Positions 29,315 to 59,217 of a stretch of 64,000 nucleotides of DNA are shown here, piece after piece. This stretch comes from a virus. The notes beneath the pieces were generated by a model. It ran no database searches and was not told the DNA's origin. It worked only from the letters and a program-made list of their open reading frames with translations. The DNA lies in IMG/VR virus record IMGVR_UViG_3300028840_006907, positions 128,001 through 192,000 of that record; one strand, 5' to 3'. The first letter of the stretch is position 1; the number at the start of each line of letters is the position of its first letter. The position numbers and the translations under genes are program-made.

Positions 29315-29326
29315 AAGTTATCCTTT

Positions 29327-30444: not shown

Positions 30445-30451
30445 AATATAT

Positions 30452-32799: not shown

Positions 32800-33726
32800 T
32801 TACCTTTTATGTGTGAGTAATTTTACTTTTAGATTTTTAATATTTTCGTTTTTATTATCACTACTGATGATCTGTGATAATATATCGACAATACCTGGAT
32901 TCTCCAGTTCCTGAACCATCATTTTACTTATCATACCATCAATAGAGATACAGCTATTGATTGTCATTTTTTTCATATTCTTGATATTATTCGCGTTGAC
33001 CACTTCAACGATGGTATTTATTTCACGTTTTATCTCTTCTTCAATGGATTCAATAAGGGTACCTATGACAAAGGTGCGCTCATCAGATCTAGGATCATGG
33101 GGATCATCTGCTATTACAAAAACAGCCTTACATTCTTTGACATTTGCTTTATGCAGAATATCCAGATCAGTAGGCATTCCCCTAATGAAAGAAATTTCAG
33201 TTTTAATATCTTCCGGAAGCTCTTCTAATTTTTCAGTTATTAGTACCATTTTACATTTAGAATATTTGGAAGTATTTTTTATTTCGTGAATGAAATATTT
33301 AATTTTCTTTTCATTGGGATATCCACAAAGGATAACATGATTTTTAAAGGCTATATCCATTAAGCCTCTCCTTTTCCTATTAATAAGATCGATTAATATA
33401 CTGGTTATAACACCGATTAAAGAGCCTATAATACCTATCCCAAGTATCATACAGGCATATGAAATGACAAACCGTCCTATAAAGGTTTTTGCATAAAAAT
33501 CCCCGTATCCTACGGTAGTCATTGTTACAATAGCCCACCAGATTGAATCCAGTAAAGAAATGTCTTGAGAGTCCCTTTCAACAAAATAGAAAGTAACTCC
33601 GAAGAATAGATTTAATACGGCAGCCAAACCTATTACGTATATTAAATCTCTTTTAAAGAGACTCCCAAAACGTAAAAATAATCTGAATATATTCATAAAT
33701 TTTATAATAGACCGTGGGAGAAACAA
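32800..33726 (-). CDS. potassium channel with RCK/TrkA-like cytoplasmic domain
   Basis: Selectivity filter TVGYGD flanked by two hydrophobic helices; VILCGYPNEKK Rossmann-like start of an RCK domain. Confidence 0.6.
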   Translation of the reverse strand: MFLPRSIIKFMNIFRLFLRFGSLFKRDLIYVIGLAAVLNLFFGVTFYFVERDSQDISLLDSIWWAIVTMTTVGYGDFYAKTFIGRFVISYACMILGIGIIGSLIGVITSILIDLINRKRRGLMDIAFKNHVILCGYPNEKKIKYFIHEIKNTSKYSKCKMVLITEKLEELPEDIKTEISFIRGMPTDLDILHKANVKECKAVFVIADDPHDPRSDERTFVIGTLIESIEEEIKREINTIVEVVNANNIKNMKKMTINSCISIDGMISKMMVQELENPGIVDILSQIISSDNKNENIKNLKVKLLTHKR

Positions 33727-33800
33727 CTTTAACTTTATATTTTTAATATTTAGCTTCGTTTATACGAAGAAGGGTAGATCCCCCACGGCTATGTTATTGA

Positions 33801-34469
33801 TTATAAATCATCATACCCTGGTAGATCTTGGCCTAATGCTTTTTCTGTTTCAGCATCAAGACTACCAGTAGGATCGGCACTTTGTTCAACAAGAGCATCA
33901 GAAGCATCTAACTCAGCTTGCATTTTTGCTTCTCTTTCCTTGAATTTAGCAACTGCTGACATGGAACTATCAGTATTTATTGTAGCAATGGCATCATTGG
34001 ATTTTTTAACTTCTTCCATTGTCTTCATGCGATCTATCGCACGTTTCATCGTGTCCAAATTTCCAGATAATGTAGTTACATTGCTCTCTTGCTTTTTATA
34101 AATGTTTTGATACTGTTCAAGACTCTTTTCCAGTGTCTGTAATTCGTTATCAAGTTCTAATTTAATAGCATATTGTTGTTTAGCCAGATCTTCATGTCCC
34201 GCCGTTTTTAATTTTTTTACTTTATCTATGCGACTAACAATTTCTTCTTTTTTAGTACTCACTTTTCTCTGTAAGCCCATTATTGAAGCTTTAGTATTTG
34301 CTAATCCAACTCTTGCTTTTTGAAAGTCCTCTTGTGCCTCTTCAATGTCTTGTTTAGCAAAAGCAATTCGATTTCCATCTTCAATTTTTTCTTCCACTTC
34401 GTTCATCTTTGCTTTACCAAATTTGAATATTGTTCCAAATAAACCCATTATCTTATCCTCCAATTTCAC
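33801..34469 (-). CDS. pspA: PspA/IM30-family protein
   Basis: N-terminus MGLFGTIFKFGKAKMNEVEEKIED matches the PspA/Vipp1 start pattern; remainder coiled-coil. Confidence 0.5.
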   Translation of the reverse strand: MKLEDKIMGLFGTIFKFGKAKMNEVEEKIEDGNRIAFAKQDIEEAQEDFQKARVGLANTKASIMGLQRKVSTKKEEIVSRIDKVKKLKTAGHEDLAKQQYAIKLELDNELQTLEKSLEQYQNIYKKQESNVTTLSGNLDTMKRAIDRMKTMEEVKKSNDAIATINTDSSMSAVAKFKEREAKMQAELDASDALVEQSADPTGSLDAETEKALGQDLPGYDDL

Positions 34470-34857
34470 TAATTTTTTTGATATTTTGACTAACTGTTAA
34501 GACCATCGATACAATTGACGCCTGCAATTCGTTAGAATCAAGGTTTGCGATTTCCAAGACATCTTTAAAAATGATTTTACCTTTACTTGTGTCCCATCCG
34601 AACCCACCGTGAACTGCTTCATCAGCATTTAGCTTTAATAGCAACTCACCAAATTCTTGTGATACTCGTTCGGCTGGACAAATATCCATGAGGAAAATTA
34701 TTGTTGTTTCCTCAACGTCAATAATTACTTCGAGCCCGGTATCGGGTTCGGTTACCAAGAAGATATCATCGGTTTTTTGTTCCGTATCGAAATCTCCTAA
34801 TTCTGTCAACATTTCGAAAACTTTAATTCCGTTTTCAATTTCTTTTTGACTTGCCAT
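34453..34857 (-). CDS. YbjN-like hypothetical protein
   Basis: Weak resemblance only; acidic 134 aa protein. Confidence 0.3.
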   Translation of the reverse strand: MASQKEIENGIKVFEMLTELGDFDTEQKTDDIFLVTEPDTGLEVIIDVEETTIIFLMDICPAERVSQEFGELLLKLNADEAVHGGFGWDTSKGKIIFKDVLEIANLDSNELQASIVSMVLTVSQNIKKISEIGG

Positions 34858-34888
34858 GATTTTTTATTCCTTTTTTATTTGTTATTTG

Positions 34889-35455
34889 TTATCTCATTGA
34901 AAGAATACTTACTTCGTGTTCTTTCACTTGACATCCATACCATATTTCTAGATATTCGTCATCATCACTACCTGACCATTCCAGAAATGCTATTGGATTA
35001 TTAATTTCACTATTCGTACCATATTCACAGATATGTAATGGCTCTCCTTCTTCTCCATTAACTTCAATTTCAACACCGAAAATAGGGGAAGATTTTTGAA
35101 TCCATGTTATATCTTCACCATCAAGTGTAATCTCGAAGTCATGTTCAAAATCTTCTCCATCTTCATCAATAATAGCTCCATAATAATCTGAAGCATCACC
35201 TTCCTGATCCAGATAGAATAATAAGATGTCAGTTACATTATCTACTTTCCGGATCATCAGCATATATTTACGTTTATCCGGAGCTATGACGATATAAGCA
35301 GTATAAGTGAAAAGATCACTTGGTTCGTGATAAATACGTACCTCTTCGATTTTGAAATCCACTCCATCACTAGCTTTAAAAGTAGCAATGGTTTGTAAAT
35401 CGGAGAGGGTCATAATATCACCTTCTCTGTGACCTAGTAATTCTTTTATTTCCAT
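34889..35455 (-). CDS. hypothetical acidic protein
   Basis: ORF track. Confidence 0.4.
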   Translation of the reverse strand: MEIKELLGHREGDIMTLSDLQTIATFKASDGVDFKIEEVRIYHEPSDLFTYTAYIVIAPDKRKYMLMIRKVDNVTDILLFYLDQEGDASDYYGAIIDEDGEDFEHDFEITLDGEDITWIQKSSPIFGVEIEVNGEEGEPLHICEYGTNSEINNPIAFLEWSGSDDDEYLEIWYGCQVKEHEVSILSMR

Positions 35456-35456
35456 C

Positions 35457-36296
35457 TTAACTACCGCCCTTCATTTTAGTTATAATTACGCCAACTATTA
35501 CAGCGACAACTATAAATCCAATAAAAAGAAGAATGTACAGAACTATTTTTGCATCATTTTCATTTGTAGGTTTTCGATCTACATGTACGACTTGTGGTGT
35601 TTGTACATGTTGTACACGAGGAGTAGTTAAAGCAGTTAAAACGAGGGCATCAACAAGAAAATCATCATCGTCATAGACAACAAAAACCCCTGAGCTATTA
35701 CGATAACCGTATCTGCCATTATAAAAGTCAGTTTCATACCGTTGCCCGTTAATTTCACGGTATCTAGGAACATGATCTGGCATTACGTCAGGTTCTTTAT
35801 CATATGTTTGATTACTTAAAGATTTTCGATAAGCTGTTTCAGCTTCTTTTTTAGATTTAAAAGTTTTTCCTTTTAAAGCCTTGTGTTTTGACAGCTTTTT
35901 ATCAACAGCACTTTTCTGGGAAGCATTAAGTTTAGGAACAGTTGTAGTCTGATTTTTACTAGTTCCATCCTTTCCCTTTATAGTACTTGAACCGGTAGGT
36001 CGTGTTAAAGATGACTTGGTATTAGTACCTGTATTATTTTTTAATTCTGCAGCTTTTTTCTCAGCTTCTAATCGCTTTTTCTTTTCTGCTGCGGTTTCAA
36101 CTTTCTTCTTATCATCTTTTTTCTTTACTTTTGATGTCCCGGTAGGACGGGTAACTTGTTTCTTTTCTTGTTTCTTTTTGCTATCGCCACTCTTGCTACT
36201 ACCGGATTTTGATTTAGATTTTGCAGCATAAACATCATCAATTCCGGCACCAGAAACCAAAAGTGAAAGAAATAGAATTATAAAAATTCTTTTCAT
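35457..36296 (-). CDS. Lys-rich protein with N-terminal signal-like and C-terminal transmembrane segments
   Basis: N-terminal MKRIFIILFLSLLVSGAG, K/S/T-rich low-complexity middle, C-terminal IVLYILLFIGFIVVAVIVGVII. Confidence 0.45.
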   Translation of the reverse strand: MKRIFIILFLSLLVSGAGIDDVYAAKSKSKSGSSKSGDSKKKQEKKQVTRPTGTSKVKKKDDKKKVETAAEKKKRLEAEKKAAELKNNTGTNTKSSLTRPTGSSTIKGKDGTSKNQTTTVPKLNASQKSAVDKKLSKHKALKGKTFKSKKEAETAYRKSLSNQTYDKEPDVMPDHVPRYREINGQRYETDFYNGRYGYRNSSGVFVVYDDDDFLVDALVLTALTTPRVQHVQTPQVVHVDRKPTNENDAKIVLYILLFIGFIVVAVIVGVIITKMKGGS

Positions 36297-36304
36297 AATA
36301 ACCT

Positions 36305-36338
36305 TCCATTTAAAAGTGATGGGGGCTAATGAGCCCCC
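36305..36338 (-). terminator. terminator-like hairpin (minus strand)
   Basis: GGGGGCT-AATG-AGCCCCC stem-loop followed on the minus strand by a U-rich stretch, in the 47 nt gap after the flotillin gene. Confidence 0.35.
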
Positions 36339-36343
36339 TTTGC

Positions 36344-38209
36344 TTATGACGCTTCGACTTCTTCTATGAATTCTTGCTCTGCAGGTTCTGGAACTGGTTC
36401 TGTTACCTGTTCTTCGACCTGGGGAGATTCTTTAGGTTTTGTGGAAGTCATCATATTAGACACATTCTTCACTACATTTGGAAGATTATCACCTAATCCT
36501 GCTTCTTTTAATAATTGATCTACAACAGGAGCCTGAGCGCGATATCCAAGAAGTTGATCCAATAAAGATTGAGTAGAAAAACCTCCTGCAGACATTTTTG
36601 ACCCACCGTTACCATTACTATGGCCATTGCTACCGGTCAAACCTGATACGTTGATAACTTTGAAAGCTTCAATTTTTTCAAGGGGTTTTACACTGGATTC
36701 AATTACTGCTGATATGTGTTCAATTATTTGGAGTTTTACACGCATATCAACAATGTCTTTAGAGAGCCTGTTTTCAGCTTCATTGAGTTTTTCCTGACCT
36801 TCAGCTTCGACTTCGTATTTTCTTTCATCGGCATCAGCTTGAATTTTGATAGCCTCAGCTTTGGCTTTGGCTTCAATTTTGATAGCCTCAGCACGATCTT
36901 GAGCTGCTTCTTTTTCAGCCTGTGCAAGAACTTTAATTTTGGCTGCATCTGATCCGGCTACTTCTTCAGCTCTAATAATTGTAATTTCTCTGGCACGATT
37001 AGCAATTTCTTTTTCACGAGCGGTGGTTACTTTTTCCTCTGCAGAAATAGCGAGTGCTCTAGCTTCATTTGCTTCCTGATCAGCCAAAGAGGTTTCTTTA
37101 GATTTATTAGCAACTTCAATATCTCTTTCCTGTTCAGCAAGTTTTATTGCTTTCTGTTTTTCGATGGTAGCTGACTCTACTGCTTGTTCTTTAACAATAG
37201 TAGCTGATTCAATTGCTTGTTCTTTTTCAATATTGGCTTCTTGTAAAGCTTTTTCTTTTATAATATTTGCTTCGGCAATGGCTTGTTCTTTTCTAATATT
37301 CTGTTCTTCAAGAGCTTTGGTAGTTTCGATTGTTTTCTTTTTAACTTCTTTTTCAGATTCTATCCTTGCTTCTTGGGCTATCTTATTTTGTTCAGCATTA
37401 AATTTTTCTTTTGTGGCATTTTCTTCTGCTGTCCTAGTAGCAATTTCACGTTCTTGTTCAAGTCTAGAATACTCTTTTTCTTTATTAATTTTTAAAGTCT
37501 GTTGTTCAGCTTGAAGATTTTTTGTTTCAATTTTTACTAGATTATCTCTTTCAATCTCATTACGTTCTTTTCTACGCTCTTCGATGATTCTAGTTAATGC
37601 TGTCAATCCCTCAGCATCAAAAGCATTATTCTCATTGAAGTGCTCTCTACTGGTTTGATCAAAACCTGTAAGTGACACAGTTTCAAGCTCTAAGCCATTT
37701 TTCTTAAGGTCTTCCAGAACATTGTTTTGGACTTTTTGCACAAAATCAGCACGTTGCTCATGCAGTTCTCTCATTTGCATTTGAGCAGCAACAGCTCTTA
37801 AGGCGTCAACGAATTTACCTTCAATAAGTTCACGTAGTTTCTCTGGGTCAAGAGTGCGGTCACCAAGAGTTTGAGCGGCATTTGCTATGGAATCAGCTTC
37901 TGGTTGTACCCGCATATAAAACTCTACAAGAACGTCAACTCTCATACGATCTTTTGTAATTAATGCGTCCTTTTCATTTCTTCTTACCGGTAATTTTAAA
38001 GTACTAAGTTTTACCCAGGTTATTTGATGAAGTACAGGTAATACTACTGCTCCACCTTCTTTTATAACTTTTTTCTTGCCCATACCAGTACGGACAAAAG
38101 CCATATCAGATGAAGCTTTTACGTACATCCTAGCAATAATTAATCCTATAACAATTAGTGCCACTAGGATTATACCTGCCATAATTAAAATAGGCATAAG
38201 GTTTTCCAT
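36344..38209 (-). CDS. flotillin-like SPFH/band-7 protein
   Basis: N-terminal TM helix, SPFH-like region, then long E/A/K coiled-coil with repeats (EANIIKEKALQEANIEKEQAIESATIVKEQAVESATIEKQKAI). Confidence 0.55.
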   Translation of the reverse strand: MENLMPILIMAGIILVALIVIGLIIARMYVKASSDMAFVRTGMGKKKVIKEGGAVVLPVLHQITWVKLSTLKLPVRRNEKDALITKDRMRVDVLVEFYMRVQPEADSIANAAQTLGDRTLDPEKLRELIEGKFVDALRAVAAQMQMRELHEQRADFVQKVQNNVLEDLKKNGLELETVSLTGFDQTSREHFNENNAFDAEGLTALTRIIEERRKERNEIERDNLVKIETKNLQAEQQTLKINKEKEYSRLEQEREIATRTAEENATKEKFNAEQNKIAQEARIESEKEVKKKTIETTKALEEQNIRKEQAIAEANIIKEKALQEANIEKEQAIESATIVKEQAVESATIEKQKAIKLAEQERDIEVANKSKETSLADQEANEARALAISAEEKVTTAREKEIANRAREITIIRAEEVAGSDAAKIKVLAQAEKEAAQDRAEAIKIEAKAKAEAIKIQADADERKYEVEAEGQEKLNEAENRLSKDIVDMRVKLQIIEHISAVIESSVKPLEKIEAFKVINVSGLTGSNGHSNGNGGSKMSAGGFSTQSLLDQLLGYRAQAPVVDQLLKEAGLGDNLPNVVKNVSNMMTSTKPKESPQVEEQVTEPVPEPAEQEFIEEVEAS

Positions 38210-38244
38210 TTGTTAAATCCCTTTCAGTTGATTTTTTAATTTAA

Positions 38245-38949
38245 TTAAAGTTCATTTTCGATACATCTAAATGTACCGTCTTTCTCCTTTCGAATTATTA
38301 AGACCTCATCACCAGCTTTAAATTCAGCGTCATCTTCTTCGGGTTCCAGGTAAACAAGATGTTGCTGTCCGTGTTTATCTTTAAGCCGTGCTTCAGCTCT
38401 AAGACCTCTTTTTGTACTACCAACAGTAATAGTTGCAAGGGTTCCAATAAATTCATCAGATGAGACCGCAGTGCTCTCATCTTTGAATGCAATATGACTG
38501 CATAATTTTGATATATAACGTGATATCAAAATCGAAAGAACAAAAGAGGCTGGCACAATTATAAACCATGGAAAGTAATGACTAGTATATTTTTTTATAT
38601 AAAATTGACCTATTAGACCTATACCGGAGAATGAAGATAAAAATATGATGAAGTAAACGAGCATCGGTACTTTTCCTTTCACCCAAATAAATAGCTTGGA
38701 TAAAGCAGGAACACTTGCTCCTTCTCCTACATCAGCTTCTACATCTACATCTGCGTCAGCATCTATGTCAATTTCAATTTCAGGTACGTCTATATCTGGT
38801 ACATCTACGTCAGCATCAAAATCTGGAATTAATCCATCTAGGAAACCAGAGATCACTCCGGATGAGAGTACTTCTAATAAAAAAATTAATACTAACAATA
38901 CTAATGCTACTGAAAAGGCCGTATTTTCAGTAGAAAGAAAGAGTTCCAT
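38245..38949 (-). CDS. NfeD-like membrane protein
   Basis: TM segments, acidic DxDxD linker, C-terminal OB-like tail; trimmed to ATG behind AAGGAAG; lies next to the flotillin gene. Confidence 0.45.
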   Translation of the reverse strand: MELFLSTENTAFSVALVLLVLIFLLEVLSSGVISGFLDGLIPDFDADVDVPDIDVPEIEIDIDADADVDVEADVGEGASVPALSKLFIWVKGKVPMLVYFIIFLSSFSGIGLIGQFYIKKYTSHYFPWFIIVPASFVLSILISRYISKLCSHIAFKDESTAVSSDEFIGTLATITVGSTKRGLRAEARLKDKHGQQHLVYLEPEEDDAEFKAGDEVLIIRKEKDGTFRCIENEL

Positions 38950-39076
38950 TTTACTTCCTTCTTTGTAATTTGTAAATCTTATGGTTTTGGTTAATAGTGT
39001 ATTGAGACTTTTATGGTTAAAGGATTGGTTATTGCTATATTGTCCTCCTTTCAATTATTTAATTGAATATATTTAT

Positions 39077-43711: not shown

Positions 43712-44353
43712 ATGAAAAATTTGGGCAAAACAATTGATCGATTAATCTCAATTGACCAGGGTCTTGAAAAATCTTTAAAACCCATAAAAAACAAATGGAA
43801 ACGATGGCCTAAAAGAACTATGAACTATTGGGCTGAACTTCTGGAAGTTTTAAATTCGGATGATTTGATGGAGCATCCTGATCGTGATAAAATGAGTCAA
43901 GTTCTTAATGATGCCAAAAAAAGGAAACGTCCTAATTATTCTTTTGAAGTAATATCAATGCATGATAGGATTGTAGGTCCTTTAACAGGTCTTTTAGCTG
44001 ATAAAATAAGACGTTTGGATCTCAGATCAATAAAAATAGGAAGAGACCGTGCTGAGGCTAATATGACGCATAATTTAAAGATGCAGATTGATGTGGCACG
44101 AAGAGAGCAACTTTTAGAAATTGAAACCAAAAAAATATGGGTTGCTTTAAGAGATGAATTTAAATTATGGACAAAGCCTGGTTATTACAATATCAAAGTT
44201 TCAACTGAAAATAATATCCTTTATATGGTGGAACAACTCCCACAACCTCAGTTGGTCGGACCAGGTGTAATAAAGATGAATCCGGATATGTTAAAAAAAT
44301 TTTTTGATTTTATGGGGATGGATCCTCCCCCCGAACTTTTTGGAGGTAAATAG
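43712..44353 (+). CDS. hypothetical protein
   Basis: ORF track. Confidence 0.4.
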   Translation: MKNLGKTIDRLISIDQGLEKSLKPIKNKWKRWPKRTMNYWAELLEVLNSDDLMEHPDRDKMSQVLNDAKKRKRPNYSFEVISMHDRIVGPLTGLLADKIRRLDLRSIKIGRDRAEANMTHNLKMQIDVARREQLLEIETKKIWVALRDEFKLWTKPGYYNIKVSTENNILYMVEQLPQPQLVGPGVIKMNPDMLKKFFDFMGMDPPPELFGGK

Positions 44354-44889
44354 TGATCAGAGCATTAAGAGTAGTTGAAGCATATTTAAAAGAAGCCTAT
44401 GATTTCAGCTCAGTCCAGGCTGAATTTCCTGAGAAGATAGCCCAGGAGCTTCGGGATTGGGGGTATAAACATATTCCTGAAGAAGCTCTTTCTGGTGACG
44501 GGTTTGAAGATGATAAACATGTGACTATTAAGTACGGAATCCATATTAATGATTTTACTGAAATAAGAGATCTGTTTAAAGATGAAAAACCGATAGAGAT
44601 GGTCCTTGGTAAAATGACCCTTTTTACTTCAAGTCCTGATTTTGATGTATTGAAAATTGATATTAAATCACCGGCTCTGCATCGATTAAACAAAGCTGTA
44701 TCAAAAAATTTTGAAGTCACAGATACACATCCAGAATACCTACCCCATTGCACAATAGCATATGTGAAGAAAGGTGCTGCAGATCCCTTTAATGGCGATA
44801 CTACATTTGAGGGTCGTAAGGTAATATCAGATTTAATTCTTTTTTCAGGAAAAGATAATCGTCATACGGAATTTAAATTGGTTAAATAA
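44353..44889 (+). CDS. 2H phosphoesterase (LigT/ThpR-like, possibly Acb1-like)
   Basis: Two H-x-T-x motifs at the expected spacing (HVTIKYG and HCTIAYV); 178 aa. Confidence 0.55.
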   Translation: MIRALRVVEAYLKEAYDFSSVQAEFPEKIAQELRDWGYKHIPEEALSGDGFEDDKHVTIKYGIHINDFTEIRDLFKDEKPIEMVLGKMTLFTSSPDFDVLKIDIKSPALHRLNKAVSKNFEVTDTHPEYLPHCTIAYVKKGAADPFNGDTTFEGRKVISDLILFSGKDNRHTEFKLVK

Positions 44890-45681
44890 ATGAAATACGA
44901 TGTGATCATAATAATAGGTGGTGGTATTAATAAAGACGGTGACCTTCCTGAAGAGGCATCATTACGGGTCAAGGAAGGGGTAAAGAAGTATAATGATGGT
45001 ATTGCCCCGAAAATATTGATGTCAGGGCGTTGGGGTAAAGATATAGATTTTACTCCGAAGAAGAAAGAAGCAATAGCTATGAAAGAGATGGCTGTTGATT
45101 TAGGTGTACCATCCAAGGATATTTTAATTGAAACTAGGGCTATGGATACTTTAAGTAATGCTAAAGAATCTAAAAAAATTATTGATAATAGTGATTGGAA
45201 AAATATTCTTGTTGTAACCTTGGATTTTCATAAGGATCGGACTGAAAAAATATTTAGAGATATTTTCGGTGATTCTTATAATATAGATGTCTATGGAGGT
45301 AAGAGTAATTTAGAAGAGTCATTATATAAGAGACATCTGAAAATGGAAGATTTAAAAATGAAAAGATATGAGAGACAGAAAAAGTTTTCTTCTATAATAG
45401 ATACACTTGATCAAATTGCTGATGATATAGAATTACAGGATAAAAGAATTGCTCTGGCAATAGATATTGTCAGTGATCAAATAGAGAAGAGGGCTTTTTT
45501 CAATCAATCCACTTGGTTACCTGGGCGTTGTACAAGAACATATCCAAATAGGAATCAGAAATCTCATAGTAGATATGAGAAAAGAGCTACTTATATATGT
45601 ATTGCTTGTAATTTACGAAGATATTCGGCGAGTGAGTATTGCCCTCGATGCGGTCATTCTATGCAAAAGATCTTCTGCTAG
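44890..45681 (+). CDS. DUF218 (YdcF/SanA-like) domain protein with C-terminal zinc ribbon
   Basis: IIIGGGINKDG...ILMSGRWG...LVVTLDFHKDR resembles the DUF218 pattern; C-terminal CIACN...CPRCGH. Confidence 0.4.
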   Translation: MKYDVIIIIGGGINKDGDLPEEASLRVKEGVKKYNDGIAPKILMSGRWGKDIDFTPKKKEAIAMKEMAVDLGVPSKDILIETRAMDTLSNAKESKKIIDNSDWKNILVVTLDFHKDRTEKIFRDIFGDSYNIDVYGGKSNLEESLYKRHLKMEDLKMKRYERQKKFSSIIDTLDQIADDIELQDKRIALAIDIVSDQIEKRAFFNQSTWLPGRCTRTYPNRNQKSHSRYEKRATYICIACNLRRYSASEYCPRCGHSMQKIFC

Positions 45682-45937
45682 GTGTTCTTTTCCTAGCTTC
45701 ATTAATTTTTAGATTTCTACCACCTAATTCTCTGTTATTTAAGTTAGAGATAGCATCATCTGCTTCGCTATCCTTACTCATTTCGACAAAACCAAAACCT
45801 CGTGAACGGCCTGTATCACGATCTTTAATGATTTGAGCTGATACAACTGTACCAAAAGTACTGAAAAGTTCTTTTAATTCATCTTCTGTGGTTTTCCATT
45901 GAAGATTACCAACATAAATTTTCTTGTTTGGCAACAT
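45659..45937 (-). CDS. RRM-type RNA-binding protein
   Basis: RNP-2 IYVGNL and RNP-1 RGFGFVEM motifs. Confidence 0.65.
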   Translation of the reverse strand: MLPNKKIYVGNLQWKTTEDELKELFSTFGTVVSAQIIKDRDTGRSRGFGFVEMSKDSEADDAISNLNNRELGGRNLKINEARKRTPSRRSFA

Positions 45938-45982
45938 ATCCTCCGATTAATTTTAAATAAATTTAGTAGGCAGTAATATAAT

Positions 45983-46906
45983 TTAAATGCCTGTTTGTAG
46001 TCTATAACTGATTAAAACTCTTTTTTGTATTGTATTTCCATAAATTCTGTGATCGAAAGCATCTTTCCCTTTTGTCTTTACCCATAAAAAGCCGTCTTTA
46101 TATTTAACTAGTGCGAATTGGCCTTTTAATTTTTTTCCATTAAAATTGAGAATATACTTGGTATCTCCTTCGGAATAAATAAGATCGAAAGTACCTTTAT
46201 CCCAAATTTTAACTTTACCTGCACCATAACCATCTTTTATTTCACCTTCGAATTGGCCATAAGCTATGGGATGATCTTCAGTTTCAATCAGATATACTTT
46301 GTTCTTTCTGGTAGGAATTTCGCGCAGTTTATTAACGAAAGACCTGTATACTGTTCCTGGATCCTTTGATCCTTTACCTGTAGGTTCATTGGTTTGAGGT
46401 CTCTTTTTATCATAGTTTTTAAGGGATCTTTCTAGTGATTTTACGGGGAATTCAAGTCTAACATCCCAATGTTTTCCAGCTTTGTCAGCTTCATGATTAT
46501 GGATAACGAATTTACCTTTATAACCTTGTTTCATTTTTTCCAGGTCATATCCGGCTGTAATAGTTCTGACTATATGAGATTCACCATTTATGCTTCGATT
46601 TATGATTGATGCAATTTTTTTGGATAACTTTTTATATTCTTCTGCGAAGGCATCAAATTTTTGAATAGCTTTTTTGATCTCATATTCTTTTACACCAGAA
46701 AGTGCTATTACAATTTGAGAGTCTTTTCGGTTAATGGTAAAACCGTGTTTACTTGCTATTTTAAAAACTCTTTTAGAAGGTTCATTATTAAAAATAAAAG
46801 CCCAATGATTTTTATACCATCCTAAACTAGCGGGTTTTTCTGGTATTAGGGCTTCAGCAGCATTTATGAGAGGTCCCTCTAAATGTATATGAGCTATTTT
46901 ATCCAT
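45983..46906 (-). CDS. protein with LigD-type 3'-phosphoesterase domain
   Basis: KFVIHNHEADKAGKHWDVRLE and ETEDHPIAYGQFEGEI...YGAGKVKIWDKG match the LigD phosphoesterase signature. Confidence 0.55.
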   Translation of the reverse strand: MDKIAHIHLEGPLINAAEALIPEKPASLGWYKNHWAFIFNNEPSKRVFKIASKHGFTINRKDSQIVIALSGVKEYEIKKAIQKFDAFAEEYKKLSKKIASIINRSINGESHIVRTITAGYDLEKMKQGYKGKFVIHNHEADKAGKHWDVRLEFPVKSLERSLKNYDKKRPQTNEPTGKGSKDPGTVYRSFVNKLREIPTRKNKVYLIETEDHPIAYGQFEGEIKDGYGAGKVKIWDKGTFDLIYSEGDTKYILNFNGKKLKGQFALVKYKDGFLWVKTKGKDAFDHRIYGNTIQKRVLISYRLQTGI

Positions 46907-47768
46907 AAGTTTCTGTTAATACCGGTTTCTTACCTTTAAGTTTTAACCATTCATATTTCTTTTTGTTGTTTTTTAAATGGTTTAAATATTCTTCTGTAAC
47001 AGTGATTTCTTTAAATTCCCCATCTATAAATTCATTTATTACTTCTCCTACTTTAGGAAGGGGCTCTTCTGAAAGTGGGGTTGAAGGGATTGTTTCTCCT
47101 TTTTGATGTTGTTGCTCTCGTTTTCTTAACCTTTTTATTTTACTTACTTCTGCTGGTGAAAGGGGTTCACCATAAAGGCTTTCTTTTTTAAGATAAGCTG
47201 ATAATACTCTGTGGGCAGCTTCTTTATTTTTTGTATCCTCCATATTAATTGACGCTCCTTCTCTATATTTATTTATAACTTTCATAGCTTTCTTTTTTCG
47301 TTGTCTCCACATATTGAGACATTGAGCCACTGCTTCATCATGGTCTTTTTTCTCAACTTTTAATAATTGGTGCATACAAGCAGACATCCATTCTTTTTCA
47401 TTTTTAAATTTATTTGGATTAGGCATATCAATAACCTTTTTTAAAGATGTTTTTATTTTGATATCTGTAAAAGCTCTTTTAAGAATATCTTCAGTTTCTT
47501 CAATTCCTTCGAGATAGGATTTAAATTCCTCCGGTCTTAGATAGACGAGAAGACGTAGAAATTCCCCGGCATGAACAACTTCTTCTTCTGCGATATCTCT
47601 CAATACATTCTCAACTTTACTATCTTTTATAGAATCAGCCAATTGGGTATATAATTGAACCGCTTCATATTCTGCTGCAATTAAAAATCTAATCGCTCTT
47701 ATAATCTCTTCTTTATCTAAATTTCGGTCATTTCTCAATCCCGAAAAAGGTGTCCCAAAGTCAGGCAT
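46899..47768 (-). CDS. hypothetical protein with ferritin-like N-terminal segment
   Basis: AAEYEAVQLYTQLA...AEEEVVHAGEFLRL resembles a ferritin/rubrerythrin-like pair; weak. Confidence 0.3.
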   Translation of the reverse strand: MPDFGTPFSGLRNDRNLDKEEIIRAIRFLIAAEYEAVQLYTQLADSIKDSKVENVLRDIAEEEVVHAGEFLRLLVYLRPEEFKSYLEGIEETEDILKRAFTDIKIKTSLKKVIDMPNPNKFKNEKEWMSACMHQLLKVEKKDHDEAVAQCLNMWRQRKKKAMKVINKYREGASINMEDTKNKEAAHRVLSAYLKKESLYGEPLSPAEVSKIKRLRKREQQHQKGETIPSTPLSEEPLPKVGEVINEFIDGEFKEITVTEEYLNHLKNNKKKYEWLKLKGKKPVLTETYG

Positions 47769-56019: not shown

Positions 56020-56526
56020 TTATTTTTTTGGTTTAAATAAATTTATGTGGTAAAAGAATTTCCATAACCAACCGATGAATGGGATATCTGTTACAGGTTT
56101 TTCTAAAACCCATTCTAGAGCACAGATATCAGGATATTCTTTTTCTTTATATTTTTTGTCATTTAATCTCTCTTCGAATAATTGTTGAAGATCTTTTTTT
56201 GTATACCTATATACGAAAGCATTACAATTTTGACAATGGTGTATCTCTTGGCATATATCCAATAGATGGGGTTCAATCTTAGCATTTTCAGGATTTGGTG
56301 GTGGCCATATAAATCTTCCTTTTGGTAGATTTGATTCTGGCTGGTGAAGAAAACAAAGATTTATTACGGTAGATATTTTACCCTTTTTTAGATAATAAGG
56401 GTAATTATATCTACAATTCTCAGGTACTCTTTTAAGAAATTTCTTATAAAGTTTTACTAGATGGTAATATTTTACCTCTCTTAATTTTTTCCAAATTTTT
56501 CCAGTACTTTTCATTTTGGTTCCCAA
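56020..56526 (-). CDS. hypothetical protein
   Basis: ORF track. Confidence 0.4.
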   Translation of the reverse strand: MGTKMKSTGKIWKKLREVKYYHLVKLYKKFLKRVPENCRYNYPYYLKKGKISTVINLCFLHQPESNLPKGRFIWPPPNPENAKIEPHLLDICQEIHHCQNCNAFVYRYTKKDLQQLFEERLNDKKYKEKEYPDICALEWVLEKPVTDIPFIGWLWKFFYHINLFKPKK

Positions 56527-57179
56527 TTAAGTCCAAAAACCTTTACTTTAGGTTTTTTGTAAAAGAAATTTTCATCTATGAAATAGATTTTGTCCGCATA
56601 CGACTCTAAAGAAGAGTTGTAGCATTTTTTAAAGCTCCATATTTCTATCTGTTTATTTTTACTCTTTAAATACCGGCATAGATCAGTGAAATTCCCGTCT
56701 CCAGACATTAATATCCATTTAGAGTAATGGTTTATTTTATCCAAACAATCAATCACTATTTCTACATCATTATATGATTCTTTGTATATGGGTATATTAT
56801 ATGTCTGTTCATTCTGGACTGGTTTATTATATCCTGTTGTGGGTCGATTCTGCCTTTTAATTCTTACATTTTGTTTTTTTGCCTTCATAGACTTATTGTA
56901 AACGGGTTCATTCTGGACTAACCGGTTATGCCCTATTAAGGTCCGGTTTTGTTTTTTTGCCCTTATAGTGTATCCTATGGAAGTCAGTTTGGATTCAAAT
57001 CTGCTACTATCAAAATCATTTCCTCTGAACATATAAATACTTGCACCAATAAGAAATTCGGTTTCTCGACTATTAAAATATTCCCACACTTTTTCAAAAT
57101 CGATCTTTTCTTCTTTGTTTTTCATTTCATAAAAGAGATTTTGAAGATCTATTTGTAGGAATGTCGTAAAATTTTTCAT
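56511..57179 (-). CDS. hypothetical protein, possible NYN/LabA-like domain
   Basis: ILMSGDGNFTDL resembles the NYN pattern; internal basic repeats KAKKQN...; weak. Confidence 0.3.
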   Translation of the reverse strand: MKNFTTFLQIDLQNLFYEMKNKEEKIDFEKVWEYFNSRETEFLIGASIYMFRGNDFDSSRFESKLTSIGYTIRAKKQNRTLIGHNRLVQNEPVYNKSMKAKKQNVRIKRQNRPTTGYNKPVQNEQTYNIPIYKESYNDVEIVIDCLDKINHYSKWILMSGDGNFTDLCRYLKSKNKQIEIWSFKKCYNSSLESYADKIYFIDENFFYKKPKVKVFGLNWEPK

Positions 57180-57781
57180 TTAATTTTCTCCATGATAAGA
57201 CCGTTTTTTGATTCCTTCACTTTATATACTCGGTCTGCATCGTGTTTAAATTCTTTTTGATGGGTTACAAGAAGTATATCTATACCTATCTTTTTTGAGA
57301 GTTCACTTATTAATTTTGCTGTGTTAGAAATGTAAAGTTCTCCGACTGGTGCAAAGGTCTCATCTAAAAGCATCAATCGTGCGAGATCTTTTTTTAGTAC
57401 ACTGAGAATACGCATAAGAAAACTTTCTATAACAGCTACACTTCCTCCAAAAGATTTGAAATCACCTTCAATATCTCCATCTAAAGTTTTTAATTCAATA
57501 TTTATTTTTCCTGCTTTTTCTTTTTTGTCAGGTAAAAAAGTTAAATTCTGATCATCAAAGACACTTTTAAGACCGTAAGTGATAAGAGCTGCCATTCGGG
57601 TTATTTCATTTTTAACCATAATATCTAAAAGATGTTTTAATACCACACTAGCTTTTGAATCCCTTTCGATGTTTATCTTAAGGGATTCAATAGTATCTTT
57701 TAGTGACTGCTCTTGATTTAATAACGCCTTATAGAACCCATCAATCTGATCTGTTTGTCGTTGTAAAGCAGTAATATCCAT
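57176..57781 (-). CDS. SbcC/Rad50-like ATPase, C-terminal half (signature, Walker B, H-loop)
   Basis: SFGGSVAVIESF (signature-like), RLMLLDETFAPV (Walker B), ILLVTHQ (H-loop) after a short coiled-coil. Confidence 0.4.
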   Translation of the reverse strand: MDITALQRQTDQIDGFYKALLNQEQSLKDTIESLKINIERDSKASVVLKHLLDIMVKNEITRMAALITYGLKSVFDDQNLTFLPDKKEKAGKINIELKTLDGDIEGDFKSFGGSVAVIESFLMRILSVLKKDLARLMLLDETFAPVGELYISNTAKLISELSKKIGIDILLVTHQKEFKHDADRVYKVKESKNGLIMEKIK

Positions 57782-57783
57782 TT

Positions 57784-58938
57784 TTATACTTTCCTAGCTA
57801 GTGTTAATAAAGCTATCGCAGTAAAAGGTATTGTGATTGGATCTTTGTCTTTCTCTTCTATGATAATACTAGCTTCACTATAGATAGTGCATTTTCTCGC
57901 TTTTAAATAGAAATTGACATTTTTTGCCTGAAAGAGACTTAAAATGTTTTTAAATTTAGCACATTCTATAAGGAAATCAAGTTTATTATTTCCTGAAATT
58001 CTTTTACATTCCATATTTTCATATGAAGGTCGATCAGTCAAGGTTTTCATTTTAAGTATTTGATCTTCTCCGTAAGAAGAATCGATGGCTATATCTTCCC
58101 ATGAAGAAAGAGCTAAACGATTCAACTTTTTTGAGAAATCTGAACAGTTCACATTAAAACCGTCTGTGTCTGGGACTTCAGTGGTAATTGGTAATTTCGG
58201 TTTTCCCACAATTGATTGTCTAAAACCGAAATAATTAAGGTCGTCTTCTGAAGAAAATGTAATGTATTTTTCAGAAGATTTAATAGTGACTTCAGAAGAT
58301 TTTGTTTTATCAACAAAATTGATAATTGATGGAAGCATTGCTCTTCTTAAAGCCAGTTCCGGGATACTATTGAAATCATCACTCTTGAAAGCCCCTATTT
58401 TAGTATTACCATCTGATCCGTATAATGTACCTTCTTCAATAAACAGATTGGAGAACTTTTTATCCTTATCATCCTTAGGAAGAAAACCCTGGATAAATTT
58501 TACTCCTTTAAGAAAAACAACTGAATTGATTTTGCCCCTTAATTCTTGATTGGTTAAATCAAAATTAAGAAATTTTTCAGGTTCGAAAGAAGCAAAAGAA
58601 ATGTAAGCTTTTTTGTTATCAGATGCATACACATTCAGAGTTTTCTTTTCAGGGTCGTAGGAAAAAGAGATCTCTTCTGAATCTGAATTGTTAATAAGTA
58701 AAAGTATTCTTTTTGGATCTGCTGTAAATTCTGTTATATCCCCTTCAACAGATTTTAAAGGAAAATGAGATTGAGCAATTTTATCTTCGTCTGTGGCATA
58801 CAAAGAAACGTTTTCATTACTTTCATTAATTCTGAATAAAGTATGGCTACGGATGGTATTAGCCACATCACCCGTTGCCAGGGAGACTACTGATAGAGCA
58901 GTTTTTAATTCTTTAGTTGGAGCTGAAAAATTTATCAT
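57784..58938 (-). CDS. possible DNA polymerase sliding clamp (DnaN-like)
   Basis: N-terminus MINFSAPTKELKTALSVVSLAT resembles the beta-clamp start; length 384 aa; weak. Confidence 0.3.
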   Translation of the reverse strand: MINFSAPTKELKTALSVVSLATGDVANTIRSHTLFRINESNENVSLYATDEDKIAQSHFPLKSVEGDITEFTADPKRILLLINNSDSEEISFSYDPEKKTLNVYASDNKKAYISFASFEPEKFLNFDLTNQELRGKINSVVFLKGVKFIQGFLPKDDKDKKFSNLFIEEGTLYGSDGNTKIGAFKSDDFNSIPELALRRAMLPSIINFVDKTKSSEVTIKSSEKYITFSSEDDLNYFGFRQSIVGKPKLPITTEVPDTDGFNVNCSDFSKKLNRLALSSWEDIAIDSSYGEDQILKMKTLTDRPSYENMECKRISGNNKLDFLIECAKFKNILSLFQAKNVNFYLKARKCTIYSEASIIIEEKDKDPITIPFTAIALLTLARKV

Positions 58939-58941
58939 TTT

Positions 58942-59202
58942 TTATACCTCTATTAAGTTAAGTTTTTGTTTAGTTTCTTCTACTTCTTTTTCCAGATCTG
59001 TCAATAATTTCTGTAATTCATTTTCTTTCTCTTCTCTGATACTGGATAATTTTTTCGGATCATAACCTTTCTTTTTTATCTCCTTGAGGAGCTTTTCAAG
59101 ATTAATTTTTTCATTATTAAATCTCTCCTCCAGGCGGATTTTCTGATTAGAGATAGTATTCACATCTTCTTTGATTTTTTGATATCTTTCTGTTTCATTC
59201 AT
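58942..59202 (-). CDS. small coiled-coil protein
   Basis: E/K-rich heptad-like 86 aa. Confidence 0.35.
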   Translation of the reverse strand: MNETERYQKIKEDVNTISNQKIRLEERFNNEKINLEKLLKEIKKKGYDPKKLSSIREEKENELQKLLTDLEKEVEETKQKLNLIEV

Positions 59203-59217
59203 AACATTTACCTCATT

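What the first reader, a model, noticed from the sequence alone, without database searches (positions are those of the whole stretch)
44353..46906. Nucleic-acid end-processing cluster: 2H phosphoesterase, DUF218, RRM protein, LigD-type 3'-phosphoesterase
A 2H phosphoesterase with two HxT motifs (LigT/ThpR-like; the same fold as anti-CBASS Acb1), an RRM RNA-binding protein and a LigD-type 3'-phosphoesterase domain protein are adjacent, close to a dense tRNA array. This could be an RNA or tRNA repair system countering anticodon nucleases, or a cyclic-nucleotide-degrading anti-defence enzyme.
Basis: partly seen in the sequence, partly recalled or inferred. Interest (0 to 1): 0.55.

Follow-up and report, generated by a model that had tools for sequence, protein, structure and literature searches.

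The report
Mosaic phage end-processing gene island
Four real nucleic-acid-related genes sit side by side in a huge phage, but they are two back-to-back gene sets at a fast-changing spot of the genome (the worn-down remainder of a DNA-end repair module, and an Acb1-like enzyme that probably destroys bacterial alarm nucleotides), not one RNA-repair machine.

Summary
All four ORFs exist at the stated coordinates with the stated domains, both HxT motifs and all six LigD-PE catalytic residues. The window comes from a 388.6-kb metagenomic contig that looks like a huge phage.

The genes form two convergent transcription units, and the tRNA array is more than 23 kb away.

In about 15 related phage loci the minus-strand unit reads ATP DNA ligase, Prim-Pol, PE (often fused to a probable Pol-beta nucleotidyltransferase), then RRM. 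The window has lost the ligase, the Prim-Pol core and the nucleotidyltransferase. A core-deleted Prim-Pol remnant is fused to a ferritin-like gene.

The plus-strand unit (213-aa protein, 2H, Zn-ribbon) persists in a relative that lacks the PE catalytic domain. DUF218 is a lineage-specific insertion fused to the Zn-ribbon, which in relatives is fused to, or follows, the 2H gene.

The 2H protein belongs to a widespread phage family (at least 565 IMG/VR stretches). About half of the sampled members lie inside giant polyvalent proteins. Its nearest solved relatives are Acb1 enzymes, but it fails the Acb1 threshold.

No RNA ligase, kinase or Ku was found. Best reading: independent counter-defence and end-healing genes at an accessory-gene hot spot. 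Moderate interest.

The parts
43712..44353 (+). 213-aa protein of unknown function, first gene of the + unit. Its stop overlaps the 2H start by 1 nt.
   Evidence: 30 homologues, all in this phage lineage, with no Pfam, PHROG or PDB sequence match. The AF2 model (pLDDT 83.5) has long helices plus a small beta domain and no Foldseek PDB match (best E 1.5). It lies next to 2H in L005, L007, L103 and L110, and is present without 2H in L002, L003 and L092.
44353..44889 (+). 2H phosphoesterase (H56xT58, H132xT134), a solo member of the phage polyvalent-type, Acb1-related 2H family.
   Evidence: At least 565 IMG/VR stretches encode relatives.
44890..45264 (+). DUF218 (YdcF-like) domain, aa 1-125 of the 263-aa ORF B. 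A lineage-specific insertion.
   Evidence: Pfam PF02698 at 1.8e-21. No tblastn match in 50,697 GenBank phages. Absent from all related loci. One 80%-identical 258-aa relative exists; the next-best hits are 44-46% identical, and the one whose context was examined is cellular.
45379..45681 (+). Helix plus Zn-ribbon module (FNQSTWLPGR, then CxxC...CxxC), aa 164-263 of ORF B.
   Evidence: It is a stand-alone ~100-aa gene next to RRM in L007 (where 2H follows it) and in L002 (which has no 2H). It is fused to the C-terminus of 2H in P0053/54/57, P0060-P0069, P0077, P0081 and L110.
45659..45937 (-). 92-aa bacterial-type RRM RNA-binding protein, last gene of the - unit.
   Evidence: RRM_1 at 2.6e-26 and NF058537 at 113 bits above cut-off. 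It holds the same position in L002/L101, L005, L007, L008 and L110. Only 3 GenBank phage records match.
46058..46531 (-). LigD-type 3'-phosphoesterase (PE) catalytic domain, aa 126-283 of ORF D, with a phage-clade-specific insertion of about 27-32 aa (aa ~153-184).
   Evidence: All six essential residues are conserved. The best PDB matches are the stand-alone archaeal PEs 3p43 and 3p4h.
46553..46906 (-). N-terminal domain of ORF D (aa 1-118), function unknown.
   Evidence: It is homologous to the C-terminal domain of the 764-aa Prim-Pol protein of L002 (38%), to the N-terminus of the PE proteins of L007 and L008, and to a stand-alone 157-aa protein in L110.
46902..47426 (-). Core-deleted Prim-Pol remnant, aa 115-289 of the 289-aa ORF. 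It comprises the 54-aa 'MPNP..WM..CMH..CLNMW' N-module plus a C-terminal tail.
   Evidence: aa 115-168 are 67% identical to the first 54 aa of the L007 Prim-Pol. aa 169-202 match L007 Prim-Pol aa 292-332. aa 115-252 align with the 136-aa remnant of L110 (E 2e-21).
47433..47768 (-). Encapsulin-ferritin-like (rubrerythrin-like) N-terminal part of the 289-aa ORF.
   Evidence: Pfam Rubrerythrin at 2.3e-6. NCBIfam EncB_fam at 72 bits, below its cut-off of 90. 86% identical to the 157-aa gene of L005.

Best explanation
The interval is the meeting point of two convergent transcription units in a huge phage. Accessory genes are gained, lost and shuffled at this spot. It is not a single system.

(1) Minus-strand unit. 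In related phages this unit is an end-processing and joining module: ATP-dependent DNA ligase, then an AEP-type Prim-Pol, then a LigD-type PE (often fused to a probable Pol-beta nucleotidyltransferase), then an RRM protein. In the window phage the ligase, the Prim-Pol catalytic core and the nucleotidyltransferase have been deleted. What remains is a catalytically intact PE with its N-terminal domain, and the RRM gene. I infer that this PE still works as a manganese-dependent 3'-end-healing enzyme. It would remove 3'-phosphates or 3'-ribonucleosides from broken phage nucleic acid, and sealing would be left to another ligase.

(2) Plus-strand unit. This encodes the 213-aa protein, the 2H enzyme and a Zn-ribbon module. 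The 2H enzyme is a solo member of the phage 2H family that also occurs inside giant polyvalent proteins. Its nearest characterised relatives are Acb1 enzymes. I infer that it uses its HxT/HxT tetrad for metal-independent cleavage of 3'-5' or 2',3'-cyclic phosphodiester bonds in host nucleotide immune signals. The Zn-ribbon would serve as a partner or targeting module.

DUF218 is a recently acquired YdcF-like, probably nucleotide-binding, domain inserted in frame in front of that Zn-ribbon.

Shown: gene structure, catalytic residues, synteny, the deletions and fusions, and family relationships. Inferred: the substrates and the counter-defence role.
For: Two units, with tight coupling inside each.

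The source is a 388,651-bp contig.

Synteny was read from about 15 related loci:
- L007: Lig | 54mod-PrimPol | Nterm-PE-NTase | RRM -> <- ZnR | 2H | 213.
- L005, L092, L094/L097, L103, L109 and L002/L101 carry Lig + PrimPol + PE.
- L110 has only a PrimPol remnant plus the PE N-terminal domain, yet keeps RRM, ZnR::2H and 213.

Deletions in the window: tblastn finds no ligase or Prim-Pol core in 64 kb.

PE is intact, with a clade-specific insertion.

The NTase extension in relatives is supported by a GS...DxD motif and weak NTP_transf_2/Polbeta hits in 4 of 5 and 3 of 5 members.

Hot-spot signs: two TnpB genes in L002, a GIY-YIG/NUMOD3 homing endonuclease in L009, Tad3 in L093, and five different PE/2H arrangements.

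2H relationships:
- Acb1 proteins rank first in the PDB profile search.
- hhalign gives probability 92 against Acb1 and 30 against ThpR.
- Foldseek ranks viral cyclic-nucleotide phosphodiesterases first.
- The best BFVD hit is a domain of a 1030-aa phage protein.
- 40 of 70 IMG/VR relatives lie in ORFs of 277-3923 aa near terminase and portal genes.
- None of 80 such loci has PE, RRM, ZnR, the 213-aa protein or a ligase within 9 kb.
- Iyer et al. 2017 (PMC5512222) reported that this class of phage 2H domains is never linked to RNA ligases, and predicted anti-signalling or RNase roles.

2H-ZnR fusions.

DUF218 is lineage-specific.
Against: - Within this phage lineage a 2H gene lies within about 3 kb of the PE/ligase module in 7 of 10 informative arrangements. 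Some are co-directional and nearly abutting (L093 has an 8-nt gap; also L009 and L103). This could mean functional coupling rather than a shared hot spot.
- The window 2H protein scores below the Acb1 gathering threshold.
- The Acb1 N-terminal Tyr12 and the C-terminal lid (E141, W147) have no alignable counterpart.
- Acb1-named proteins rank only 17th and lower in BFVD.
- Structure search does not clearly separate Acb1-like enzymes from CPDase, LigT or Usb1-like enzymes.
- No substrate was tested.
- Whether the rest of the 388-kb genome has a ligase, Prim-Pol or Ku is unknown. The metagenome scan is pattern-based and cannot prove absence.
Confidence: 0.5

Rival explanations
1. 2H and PE are successive end-healing enzymes of one nucleic-acid repair pathway. 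The 2H enzyme opens 2',3'-cyclic phosphate ends. PE then removes the resulting phosphate or a terminal ribonucleoside to give a 3'-OH. The ligase, Prim-Pol and nucleotidyltransferase (present in relatives; another ligase in this phage) extend and seal. The RRM protein holds the single strand. The pathway would restore phage DNA or RNA cut by host defence nucleases.
For: PE and 2H recur as neighbours in five different arrangements in the lineage: convergent (window, L005, L007, L109), co-directional and abutting (L093), co-directional (L009), and 213-2H upstream of Lig-PrimPol-PE (L103/L104). Further shared contigs can be inferred from equal contig lengths. The biochemical order, cyclic phosphodiesterase then phosphomonoesterase, is the established logic of RNA end healing (PMC3592404, PMC3675462). 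One relative (P0095) carries a DxDxT-like C-terminal extension on the 2H domain, seen only at motif level.
Against: L110 keeps RRM, ZnR::2H and the 213-aa protein without any PE catalytic domain. L002/L101, L003 and L092 have PE without 2H. Outside the lineage, 0 of 80 2H loci have PE or a ligase nearby. No 5' kinase was found. A single inversion explains the L103 arrangement. The window itself lacks the sealing enzymes.
Confidence: 0.2
2. One reading: a tRNA/RNA repair system that counters anticodon nucleases, functionally tied to the phage tRNA array.
For: 2H enzymes can heal RNA>p ends. An RRM protein binds RNA. The phage carries 13 tRNAs. Iyer et al. 2021 (PMC7824862) list 2H enzymes among possible RNA-repair components of jumbo phages.
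Against: No RNA ligase (Rnl1/Rnl2/RtcB), Pnkp-type kinase or Hen1 was found in the scanned window ORFs. The 213-aa partner has no enzyme fold. The tRNAs are more than 23 kb away, and no tRNAs flank the locus in 9 relatives. PE's partners in relatives are a DNA-type ligase and a Prim-Pol. This class of phage 2H domains is reported never to associate with RNA ligases (PMC5512222).
Confidence: 0.1
3. The PE gene is a decaying, functionless leftover of the deleted ligase/Prim-Pol module, and the adjacency of the four genes has no biological meaning at all.
For: Stepwise erosion of the module is visible across the lineage: the window, then L110 where the PE catalytic domain is gone. The window PE has lost the C-terminal extension present in its closest relative.
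Against: The ORF is intact and 63% identical to its closest relative over 91% of its length. All six essential residues and the clade-specific insertion are conserved. PE-only arrangements recur in L008 and L093. Stand-alone PE proteins are active enzymes in archaea (PMC3082917).
Confidence: 0.1

Closest known systems
Anti-CBASS nuclease Acb1 (phage T4 gp57B, Erwinia phage FBB1; PDB 7T26/7T27; Burkholderia phage BCSR5 phosphodiesterase 9Q2G)
   Same: Small phage-encoded 2H-fold enzyme with an HxT/HxT tetrad. These are the best solved-structure relatives by profile (3.3e-6) and by hhalign (probability 92). The Phe that stacks on the base (FBB1 F74) aligns with the invariant F91, and both motifs read HxTxxY.
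   Different: It falls below the Pfam Acb1 threshold (22.5 vs 27). It is about 25 aa longer at the N-terminus. Acb1 Tyr12 and the C-terminal lid (E141, W147) have no alignable counterpart. The family ends instead in a conserved FSGKDNRxT motif and is often fused to a Zn-ribbon. Its activity is untested.
2H domains of phage polyvalent proteins and their solo versions (Iyer et al. 2017, PMC5512222)
   Same: Relatives at 35-44% identity are embedded in ORFs of 277-3923 aa next to terminase and portal genes. The best BFVD match is such a domain, at 34% identity. There is no RNA-ligase linkage.
   Different: Here the domain is a solo gene in an early/accessory-type region. It is coupled to a lineage-specific 213-aa protein and a Zn-ribbon module.
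Bacterial LigD (NHEJ ligase with PE, ligase and Pol domains) and stand-alone archaeal PE proteins (CkoPE 3P4H, MbaPE 3P43)
   Same: The same six essential residues are present. Related phages carry ligase + Prim-Pol + PE as three adjacent genes, mirroring LigD's domain set. The window protein, like the archaeal PEs, is not attached to a ligase (PMC3082917).
   Different: It has a clade-specific insertion of about 27-32 aa, a novel N-terminal domain, and (in relatives) a probable Pol-beta NTase fusion. The relatives' ligase resembles archaeal and eukaryal ATP ligases only weakly and is not specifically LigD-like. Their Prim-Pol matches LigD_Prim-Pol only weakly. No Ku was found. No PE match was found in 50,697 GenBank phage records.
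E. coli ThpR/LigT RNA 2',3'-cyclic phosphodiesterase
   Same: 2H fold and HxT motifs. Foldseek matches at E about 1e-4.
   Different: hhalign probability is only 30. TIGR02258 scores 20.8 against a cut-off of 65.7.
YdcF/ElyC/SanA (DUF218) proteins
   Same: Clear DUF218 domain match (76.9 bits).
   Different: It is soluble, phage-encoded and fused to a phage Zn-ribbon module. It is at most 46% identical to the next-best DUF218 hits (one with a confirmed cellular context). It scores far below the ElyC and SanA equivalog cut-offs.

Membership tests
2H phosphoesterase superfamily | Two HxT/S motifs | tested here: met
   H56-V-T58 and H132-C-T134 are invariant in 37 homologues.
2H phosphoesterase superfamily | 2H fold and a family model passed | tested here: met
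   AF2 pLDDT 92. Foldseek matches to Acb1, CPDase, LigT and Usb1 at E 5e-6 to 1e-3. PF13563 scores 31.8 against a cut-off of 27.
Acb1 (anti-CBASS nuclease) | Passes the curated family model PF23474 | tested here: not met
   22.5 bits against a cut-off of 27 for the window protein. All 37 family members match at E<=0.01, best 1.4e-9.
Acb1 (anti-CBASS nuclease) | Base-stacking aromatics (Y12, W/F74, F107, W147), adenine-reading E141 and a C-terminal lid (PMC9117128) | tested here: inconclusive
   hhalign aligns F74 with F91 and Y111 with Y129. The N-terminal Tyr and the lid region are outside the alignment.
Acb1 (anti-CBASS nuclease) | Cleaves cGAMP, cA3 and cA4, and rescues phage from CBASS | not testable with these tools
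   Requires biochemistry and genetics.
ThpR/LigT RNA 2',3'-cyclic phosphodiesterase | Passes equivalog model TIGR02258 | tested here: not met
   20.8 bits against a cut-off of 65.7. hhalign probability 29.8.
LigD 3'-phosphoesterase (PE) superfamily | Six essential side chains: two His plus Asp for Mn, Arg plus His for phosphate, and Tyr | tested here: met
   H138, H146, D148, R150, H212 and Y216 align to CkoPE H9, H15, D17, R19, H51 and Y55 (PMC3082917).
LigD 3'-phosphoesterase (PE) superfamily | Family model passed | tested here: met
   PF13298 scores 59.9 against a cut-off of 31.1. The stricter TIGR02777 equivalog-domain model is not passed (70.3 vs 144), because the clade insertion splits the match.
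LigD 3'-phosphoesterase (PE) superfamily | Eight-stranded beta-barrel fold and Mn-dependent 3'-phosphatase / ribonucleoside resection | not tested
Bacterial LigD/Ku NHEJ system | Ligase and polymerase domains with PE, in one protein or one locus | tested here: not met
   No ligase or Prim-Pol core was found in the 64-kb window; only a core-deleted Prim-Pol remnant is present. Both are present in relatives.
Bacterial LigD/Ku NHEJ system | Ku end-binding partner | tested here: inconclusive
   No Ku domain was found among the window ORFs of at least 150 aa that were scanned, which is all but two, nor in the gene tables of the related loci. The other ~325 kb of the genome could not be read.
RNA repair systems (T4 Pnkp+Rnl, Pnkp-Hen1, RtcA/RtcB) | RNA ligase plus 5'-kinase (or RtcB) linked to the healing enzyme | tested here: not met
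   None was found in the window or the related loci. The 213-aa partner has no enzyme-like fold.
DUF218 / YdcF-like | Family model passed | tested here: met
   PF02698 scores 76.9 against a cut-off of 27.6.
Bacterial RRM RNA-binding proteins (Rbp) | RNP1/RNP2 motifs and family model passed | tested here: met
   RRM_1 scores 91.7 bits. NF058537 scores 113 against a cut-off of 100. IYVGNL and RGFGFVEM are present.

The most novel reading that the evidence does not exclude
A lineage of huge phages carries an undescribed, self-contained nucleic-acid break-repair and tailing module. Its parts are an ATP ligase, an AEP Prim-Pol, a LigD-type 3'-phosphoesterase fused to a Pol-beta nucleotidyltransferase, an RRM protein and a 2H cyclic phosphodiesterase. 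The module would heal and reseal phage DNA or RNA ends left by host defence nucleases. The window phage would keep only the healing half (2H + PE + RRM), with DUF218 recruited to the same Zn-ribbon adaptor as a second nucleotide-processing head.
Probability: 0.2. Interest if true: 0.65.

Novelty: new variant of a known kind. Interest (0 to 1): 0.42.

Why it matters
LigD-type PE enzymes are known from bacterial NHEJ and from orphan archaeal proteins whose partners are unknown. Here a PE subfamily turns up in huge phages, and this query found no match in 50,697 GenBank phage records. In relatives it has explicit partners: a ligase, a Prim-Pol, a probable nucleotidyltransferase and an RRM protein. 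That gives a testable context for what stand-alone PEs do, and for how large phages mend or tailor their nucleic-acid ends.

The 2H-Zn-ribbon and DUF218-Zn-ribbon fusions point to a shared adaptor for two enzymes. This could give the first functional handle on a soluble DUF218 domain.

For the window itself the practical message is a caution. Adjacency of nucleic-acid domains at a hot spot where convergent units meet does not make a system.

Tried and rejected
- blastn of 43-48 kb against GenBank phages: no match.
- Single-protein scans of IMG/VR with PE and with 2H: no relatives.
- The PE alignment was too divergent for a pattern scan.
- tblastn of PE and of DUF218 against GenBank phages: none.
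- The 213-aa protein had no hit in Pfam, PHROG, PDB sequence search or Foldseek PDB. The idea that it is the missing ligase or kinase was therefore dropped.
- DUF218 literature hits were mostly DUF2188 false matches from word-start matching.
- No paper was found on the BCSR5 phosphodiesterase.
- No paper was found on phage LigD-like modules.
- The promoter/terminator scan gave fewer sites than the shuffles and is uninformative.
- Names of the nearest DUF218 relatives were not available.
- The metagenome scan for the ligase did not return the window's own contig. It relies on two peptide patterns, so this is not proof that the ligase is absent from the genome.
- TAG recoding was considered because of the tRNA with anticodon CTA, and rejected for this locus: TAG ends 8 of 49 long ORFs, three of them here.
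- Calling the relatives' three genes a 'split LigD' was softened. Their ligase is not specifically LigD-like, and the Prim-Pol match is weak.

Full report
**Source and setting.** The window is part of a 388,651-bp JGI metagenome contig (3300017963, Ga0180437_10000019). It has about 33% G+C and 13 tRNA genes, all at 117-21189. The Pfam content suggests a huge phage. It includes NAD salvage genes, a kinase/PP2C pair, PspA, flotillin, YqiJ, DnaJ, a family-9 glycosyltransferase, a NYN domain protein, a Cas4-like nuclease, SbcCD-like genes and RecA. No nucleotide similarity to 50,697 GenBank phage records was found.

**Check of the observation.**
- ORF A (44353-44889, +, 178 aa). It passes the generic 2H model PF13563 (31.8 bits, cut-off 27). 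It matches Acb1 PF23474 below cut-off (22.5 vs 27) and PHROG 755. H56xT58 and H132xT134 are invariant in 37 homologues. An AF2 model (pLDDT 92) has the 2H fold.
- ORF B (44890-45681, +, 263 aa). A DUF218 domain (1.8e-21) plus a C-terminal Zn ribbon.
- ORF C (45659-45937, -, 92 aa). A bacterial-type RRM protein (RRM_1 2.6e-26; NCBIfam Rbp_regulator above cut-off).
- ORF D (45983-46906, -, 307 aa). It matches LigD_N (3.1e-16). Its best solved relatives are the stand-alone archaeal PEs 3P43 and 3P4H. The six side chains shown to be essential in CkoPE and MbaPE (PMC3082917) are all present: H138, H146, D148, R150, H212 and Y216.

First, the genes belong to two convergent units. The + unit is 43712(213 aa)-A-B, with overlapping or abutting starts. 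The - unit runs from the glycosyltransferase at 50534 through a 289-aa ORF to D and C. The two ends overlap by 23 nt. Second, the tRNA array is more than 23 kb away.

**The minus-strand unit is the remainder of a larger module.** PE homologues form a tight metagenomic clade of about 32 clusters (E <= 1e-26). A gap separates them from bacterial LigD at E about 1e-10. The clade shares an insertion of about 27-32 aa that LigD lacks. Gene neighbourhoods of relatives show one conserved backbone: DnaJ, glycosyltransferase-9, a ferritin-like gene, then ATP-dependent DNA ligase, Prim-Pol, PE and RRM.
- The closest relative, L007, reads Lig | 54-aa module-PrimPol | Nterm-PE-extension | RRM -> <- ZnR | 2H | 213.
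- The roughly 300-aa C-terminal extension of many PE proteins carries a GS...DxD motif. It gives weak but repeated NTP_transf_2/Polbeta hits (4 of 5 and 3 of 5 members), so it is probably a Pol-beta-type nucleotidyltransferase.
- In the window, tblastn finds no ligase and no Prim-Pol core.
- The 289-aa ORF upstream of D is an in-frame fusion. Its N-terminal part is an encapsulin-ferritin-like gene, 86% identical to that of L005. This is followed by the first 54 aa of Prim-Pol (67% to L007) and a stretch that aligns with Prim-Pol residues 292-332. The same part also aligns with the 136-aa Prim-Pol remnant of L110.
- D stops where the extension begins in relatives.
- D's N-terminal 118 aa are homologous to the C-terminal domain of the 764-aa Prim-Pol protein of L002, and to a stand-alone 157-aa protein in L110.

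The window therefore holds a reduced derivative in which only PE survives, with its catalytic residues intact.

I avoid calling the relatives' genes a 'split LigD' without qualification. Their ligase resembles archaeal and eukaryal ATP ligases only weakly. Their Prim-Pol matches LigD_Prim-Pol just below threshold.

**The plus-strand unit.** The 213-aa protein occurs only in this lineage (30 homologues). It has no family, PDB or fold match, and its model is mostly long helices. It is therefore not the missing ligase or kinase.

The C-terminal 100 aa of ORF B (helix + FNQSTWLPGR + two CxxC) vary in how they are encoded in relatives. They are a separate gene next to RRM in L007 (where 2H follows) and in L002 (which has no 2H). 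They are fused to the C-terminus of the 2H protein in at least 14 clusters and in L110. This is good evidence that 2H and the Zn-ribbon work together.

The DUF218 domain is absent from every relative examined. It has no match in GenBank phages. It has one 80%-identical 258-aa relative with the same architecture, and otherwise matches DUF218 proteins at no more than 46% identity; the one whose genomic context was examined is cellular. It is an in-frame insertion between 2H and the Zn-ribbon.

**What the 2H protein is.**
- A profile of the family finds Acb1 proteins first among solved structures: BCSR5 9Q2G at 3.3e-6, FBB1 7T26 at 1.3e-3, then YjcG at 0.04.
- hhalign gives probability 92 against FBB1 Acb1 and 30 against E. 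coli ThpR.
- Foldseek ranks the penguinpox cGAMP phosphodiesterase, FBB1 Acb1 and the BCSR5 enzyme first. CPDase, Usb1 and LigT follow within about two orders of magnitude, so the fold alone does not discriminate.
- In BFVD the best match is a domain of a 1030-aa phage protein (34% identity). Solo 2H proteins of Maribacter and Tenacibaculum phages follow, and Acb1-named proteins appear only from rank 17.
- In IMG/VR at least 565 stretches on viral contigs encode relatives. Of 70 ORFs analysed, 40 are 277-3923 aa long and sit near terminase and portal genes. This is the polyvalent-protein 2H class of Iyer et al. 2017 (PMC5512222). Those authors noted it is never linked to RNA ligases, and proposed RNase or anti-signalling roles.
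- None of the 80 loci has PE, RRM, ZnR, the 213-aa protein, DUF218 or the ligase within 9 kb.
- The Acb1 features described by Hobbs et al. 2022 (PMC9117128) are only partly recognisable. The HxT/HxT tetrad and the F74 equivalent are present. Tyr12 and the lid (E141, W147) cannot be aligned.

**Are PE and 2H coupled?** Within the lineage they are neighbours in five arrangements:
- convergent (window, L005, L007, L109);
- co-directional with an 8-nt gap (L093);
- co-directional with a gene between (L009);
- 213-2H upstream of Lig-PrimPol-PE (L103/L104).

This keeps a sequential 'cyclic phosphodiesterase then phosphomonoesterase' pathway alive as a rival. Several observations count against it:
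- L110 (512-kb contig) retains RRM, ZnR::2H and the 213-aa protein but has no PE catalytic domain.
- L002/L101, L003 and L092 have PE without 2H.
- The L103 order follows from a single inversion.
- The junction attracts mobile and accessory genes: two TnpB genes in L002, a GIY-YIG/NUMOD3 homing endonuclease in L009, Tad3 in L093, and NAD-salvage genes next door.

I therefore favour a shared hot spot over a shared pathway, at roughly 5:2.

**Mechanism proposed.**
- Shown: two units, intact catalytic sets, the fusions, the deletions and the family relationships.
- Inferred for PE: it acts alone as a Mn-dependent 3'-phosphatase / 3'-ribonucleoside-resecting enzyme on broken phage nucleic acid, as stand-alone archaeal PEs do in vitro (PMC3082917).
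- Inferred for 2H: with the Zn-ribbon module, it hydrolyses cyclic or 2',3'-cyclic phosphodiester bonds of host immune nucleotides in the metal-independent manner of Acb1 (PMC9117128).
- Inferred for the rest: the RRM protein is a general RNA-binding backbone gene of the lineage. DUF218 is a newly recruited, probably nucleotide-binding, head on the same Zn-ribbon.

**Novelty and score.** The 2H gene is a new member of a known phage family. The PE is a new variant: a phage clade with an insertion, a new N-terminal domain, and in relatives a probable NTase fusion and ligase/Prim-Pol/RRM partners. I found no description of it in the searchable literature. The DUF218::Zn-ribbon fusion is new but of unknown meaning. 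The window itself carries only the eroded form of the module. Interest is 0.42.

Noticed in passing
window 21116-21189 (+): A tRNA with anticodon CTA (amber suppressor; ARAGORN labels it 'Pyl') closes the tRNA array. Yet TAG is the stop codon of 8 of 49 long ORFs in the window, including three at this locus. If TAG is recoded, it is not recoded genome-wide.
   Followed up: partly
window 24022-31624 (-): An NAD+ salvage/regeneration set: cytidylyltransferase-like (NMNAT-like) 24022-24897, NAD synthase 25096-25887 and NAPRTase 30452-31624. It resembles phage NAD-reconstitution counter-defence pathways. The same genes lie next to the PE locus in L003 and L093.
   Followed up: no
window 25900-28487 (-): Adjacent Ser/Thr protein kinase (574 aa) and PP2C phosphatase (287 aa) genes.
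   Followed up: no
window 32800-39054 (-): A run of membrane-related genes unusual for a phage: a K+ channel with an RCK domain, PspA/IM30, a flotillin/SPFH protein (621 aa) and a YqiJ/NfeD-like protein.
   Followed up: no
window 47433-47768 (-): An encapsulin-associated ferritin-like (EncFtn/EncB-type) domain in a phage. It is conserved (86%) in relatives as a separate 118-157-aa gene just upstream of the ligase.
   Followed up: partly
window 47265-47426 (-); L002 4992-5189; L009 8001-8150; L033 8143-8310; L073 8040-8195: A 54-aa module (MPNP..WM..CMH..CLNMW) behaves as a mobile N-terminal cassette. It sits on Prim-Pol (L005, L007) and on PE (L009), stands alone (L002), and in unrelated IMG/VR phages lies in front of a nucleoside-deoxyribosyltransferase-like domain directly upstream of a 2H gene.
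   Followed up: partly
L005 8586-9464; L092 7448-8335; L103 6925-7806: In relatives the PE domain is fused to a ~300-aa extension with a GS...DxD motif and weak Pol-beta nucleotidyltransferase hits. A PE-NTase architecture was not found described.
   Followed up: partly
L027 6271-18042 and 39 other IMG/VR loci: Close relatives of the 2H domain lie inside giant ORFs of up to 3923 aa next to terminase and portal genes. These are polyvalent proteins.
   Followed up: partly
L002 10089-11150 and 12689-13885; L009 6266-7990; L093 6099-6482: Mobile or counter-defence genes lie at the same junction in relatives: two TnpB (OrfB_IS605/Cas12f-like) genes, a GIY-YIG + 13x NUMOD3 homing endonuclease in the place of ligase/Prim-Pol, and a Tad3-family gene.
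   Followed up: no
P0095 (305 aa, 1294-bp ENA contig): One 2H relative carries a C-terminal extension beginning with a DFDGT (DxDxT, HAD-phosphatase-like) motif. Pfam does not recognise it, so this is a motif-level observation only.
   Followed up: partly
window 56511-63538 (-): A nuclease and recombination block: NYN-domain protein, Cas4-like PD-(D/E)XK nuclease, SbcD-like and SbcC-like proteins, and RecA.
   Followed up: no
window 7641-8192 (+), 11274-12089 (-): An HNH endonuclease and a NUMOD1/I-HmuI-like protein lie within or next to the tRNA array.
   Followed up: no
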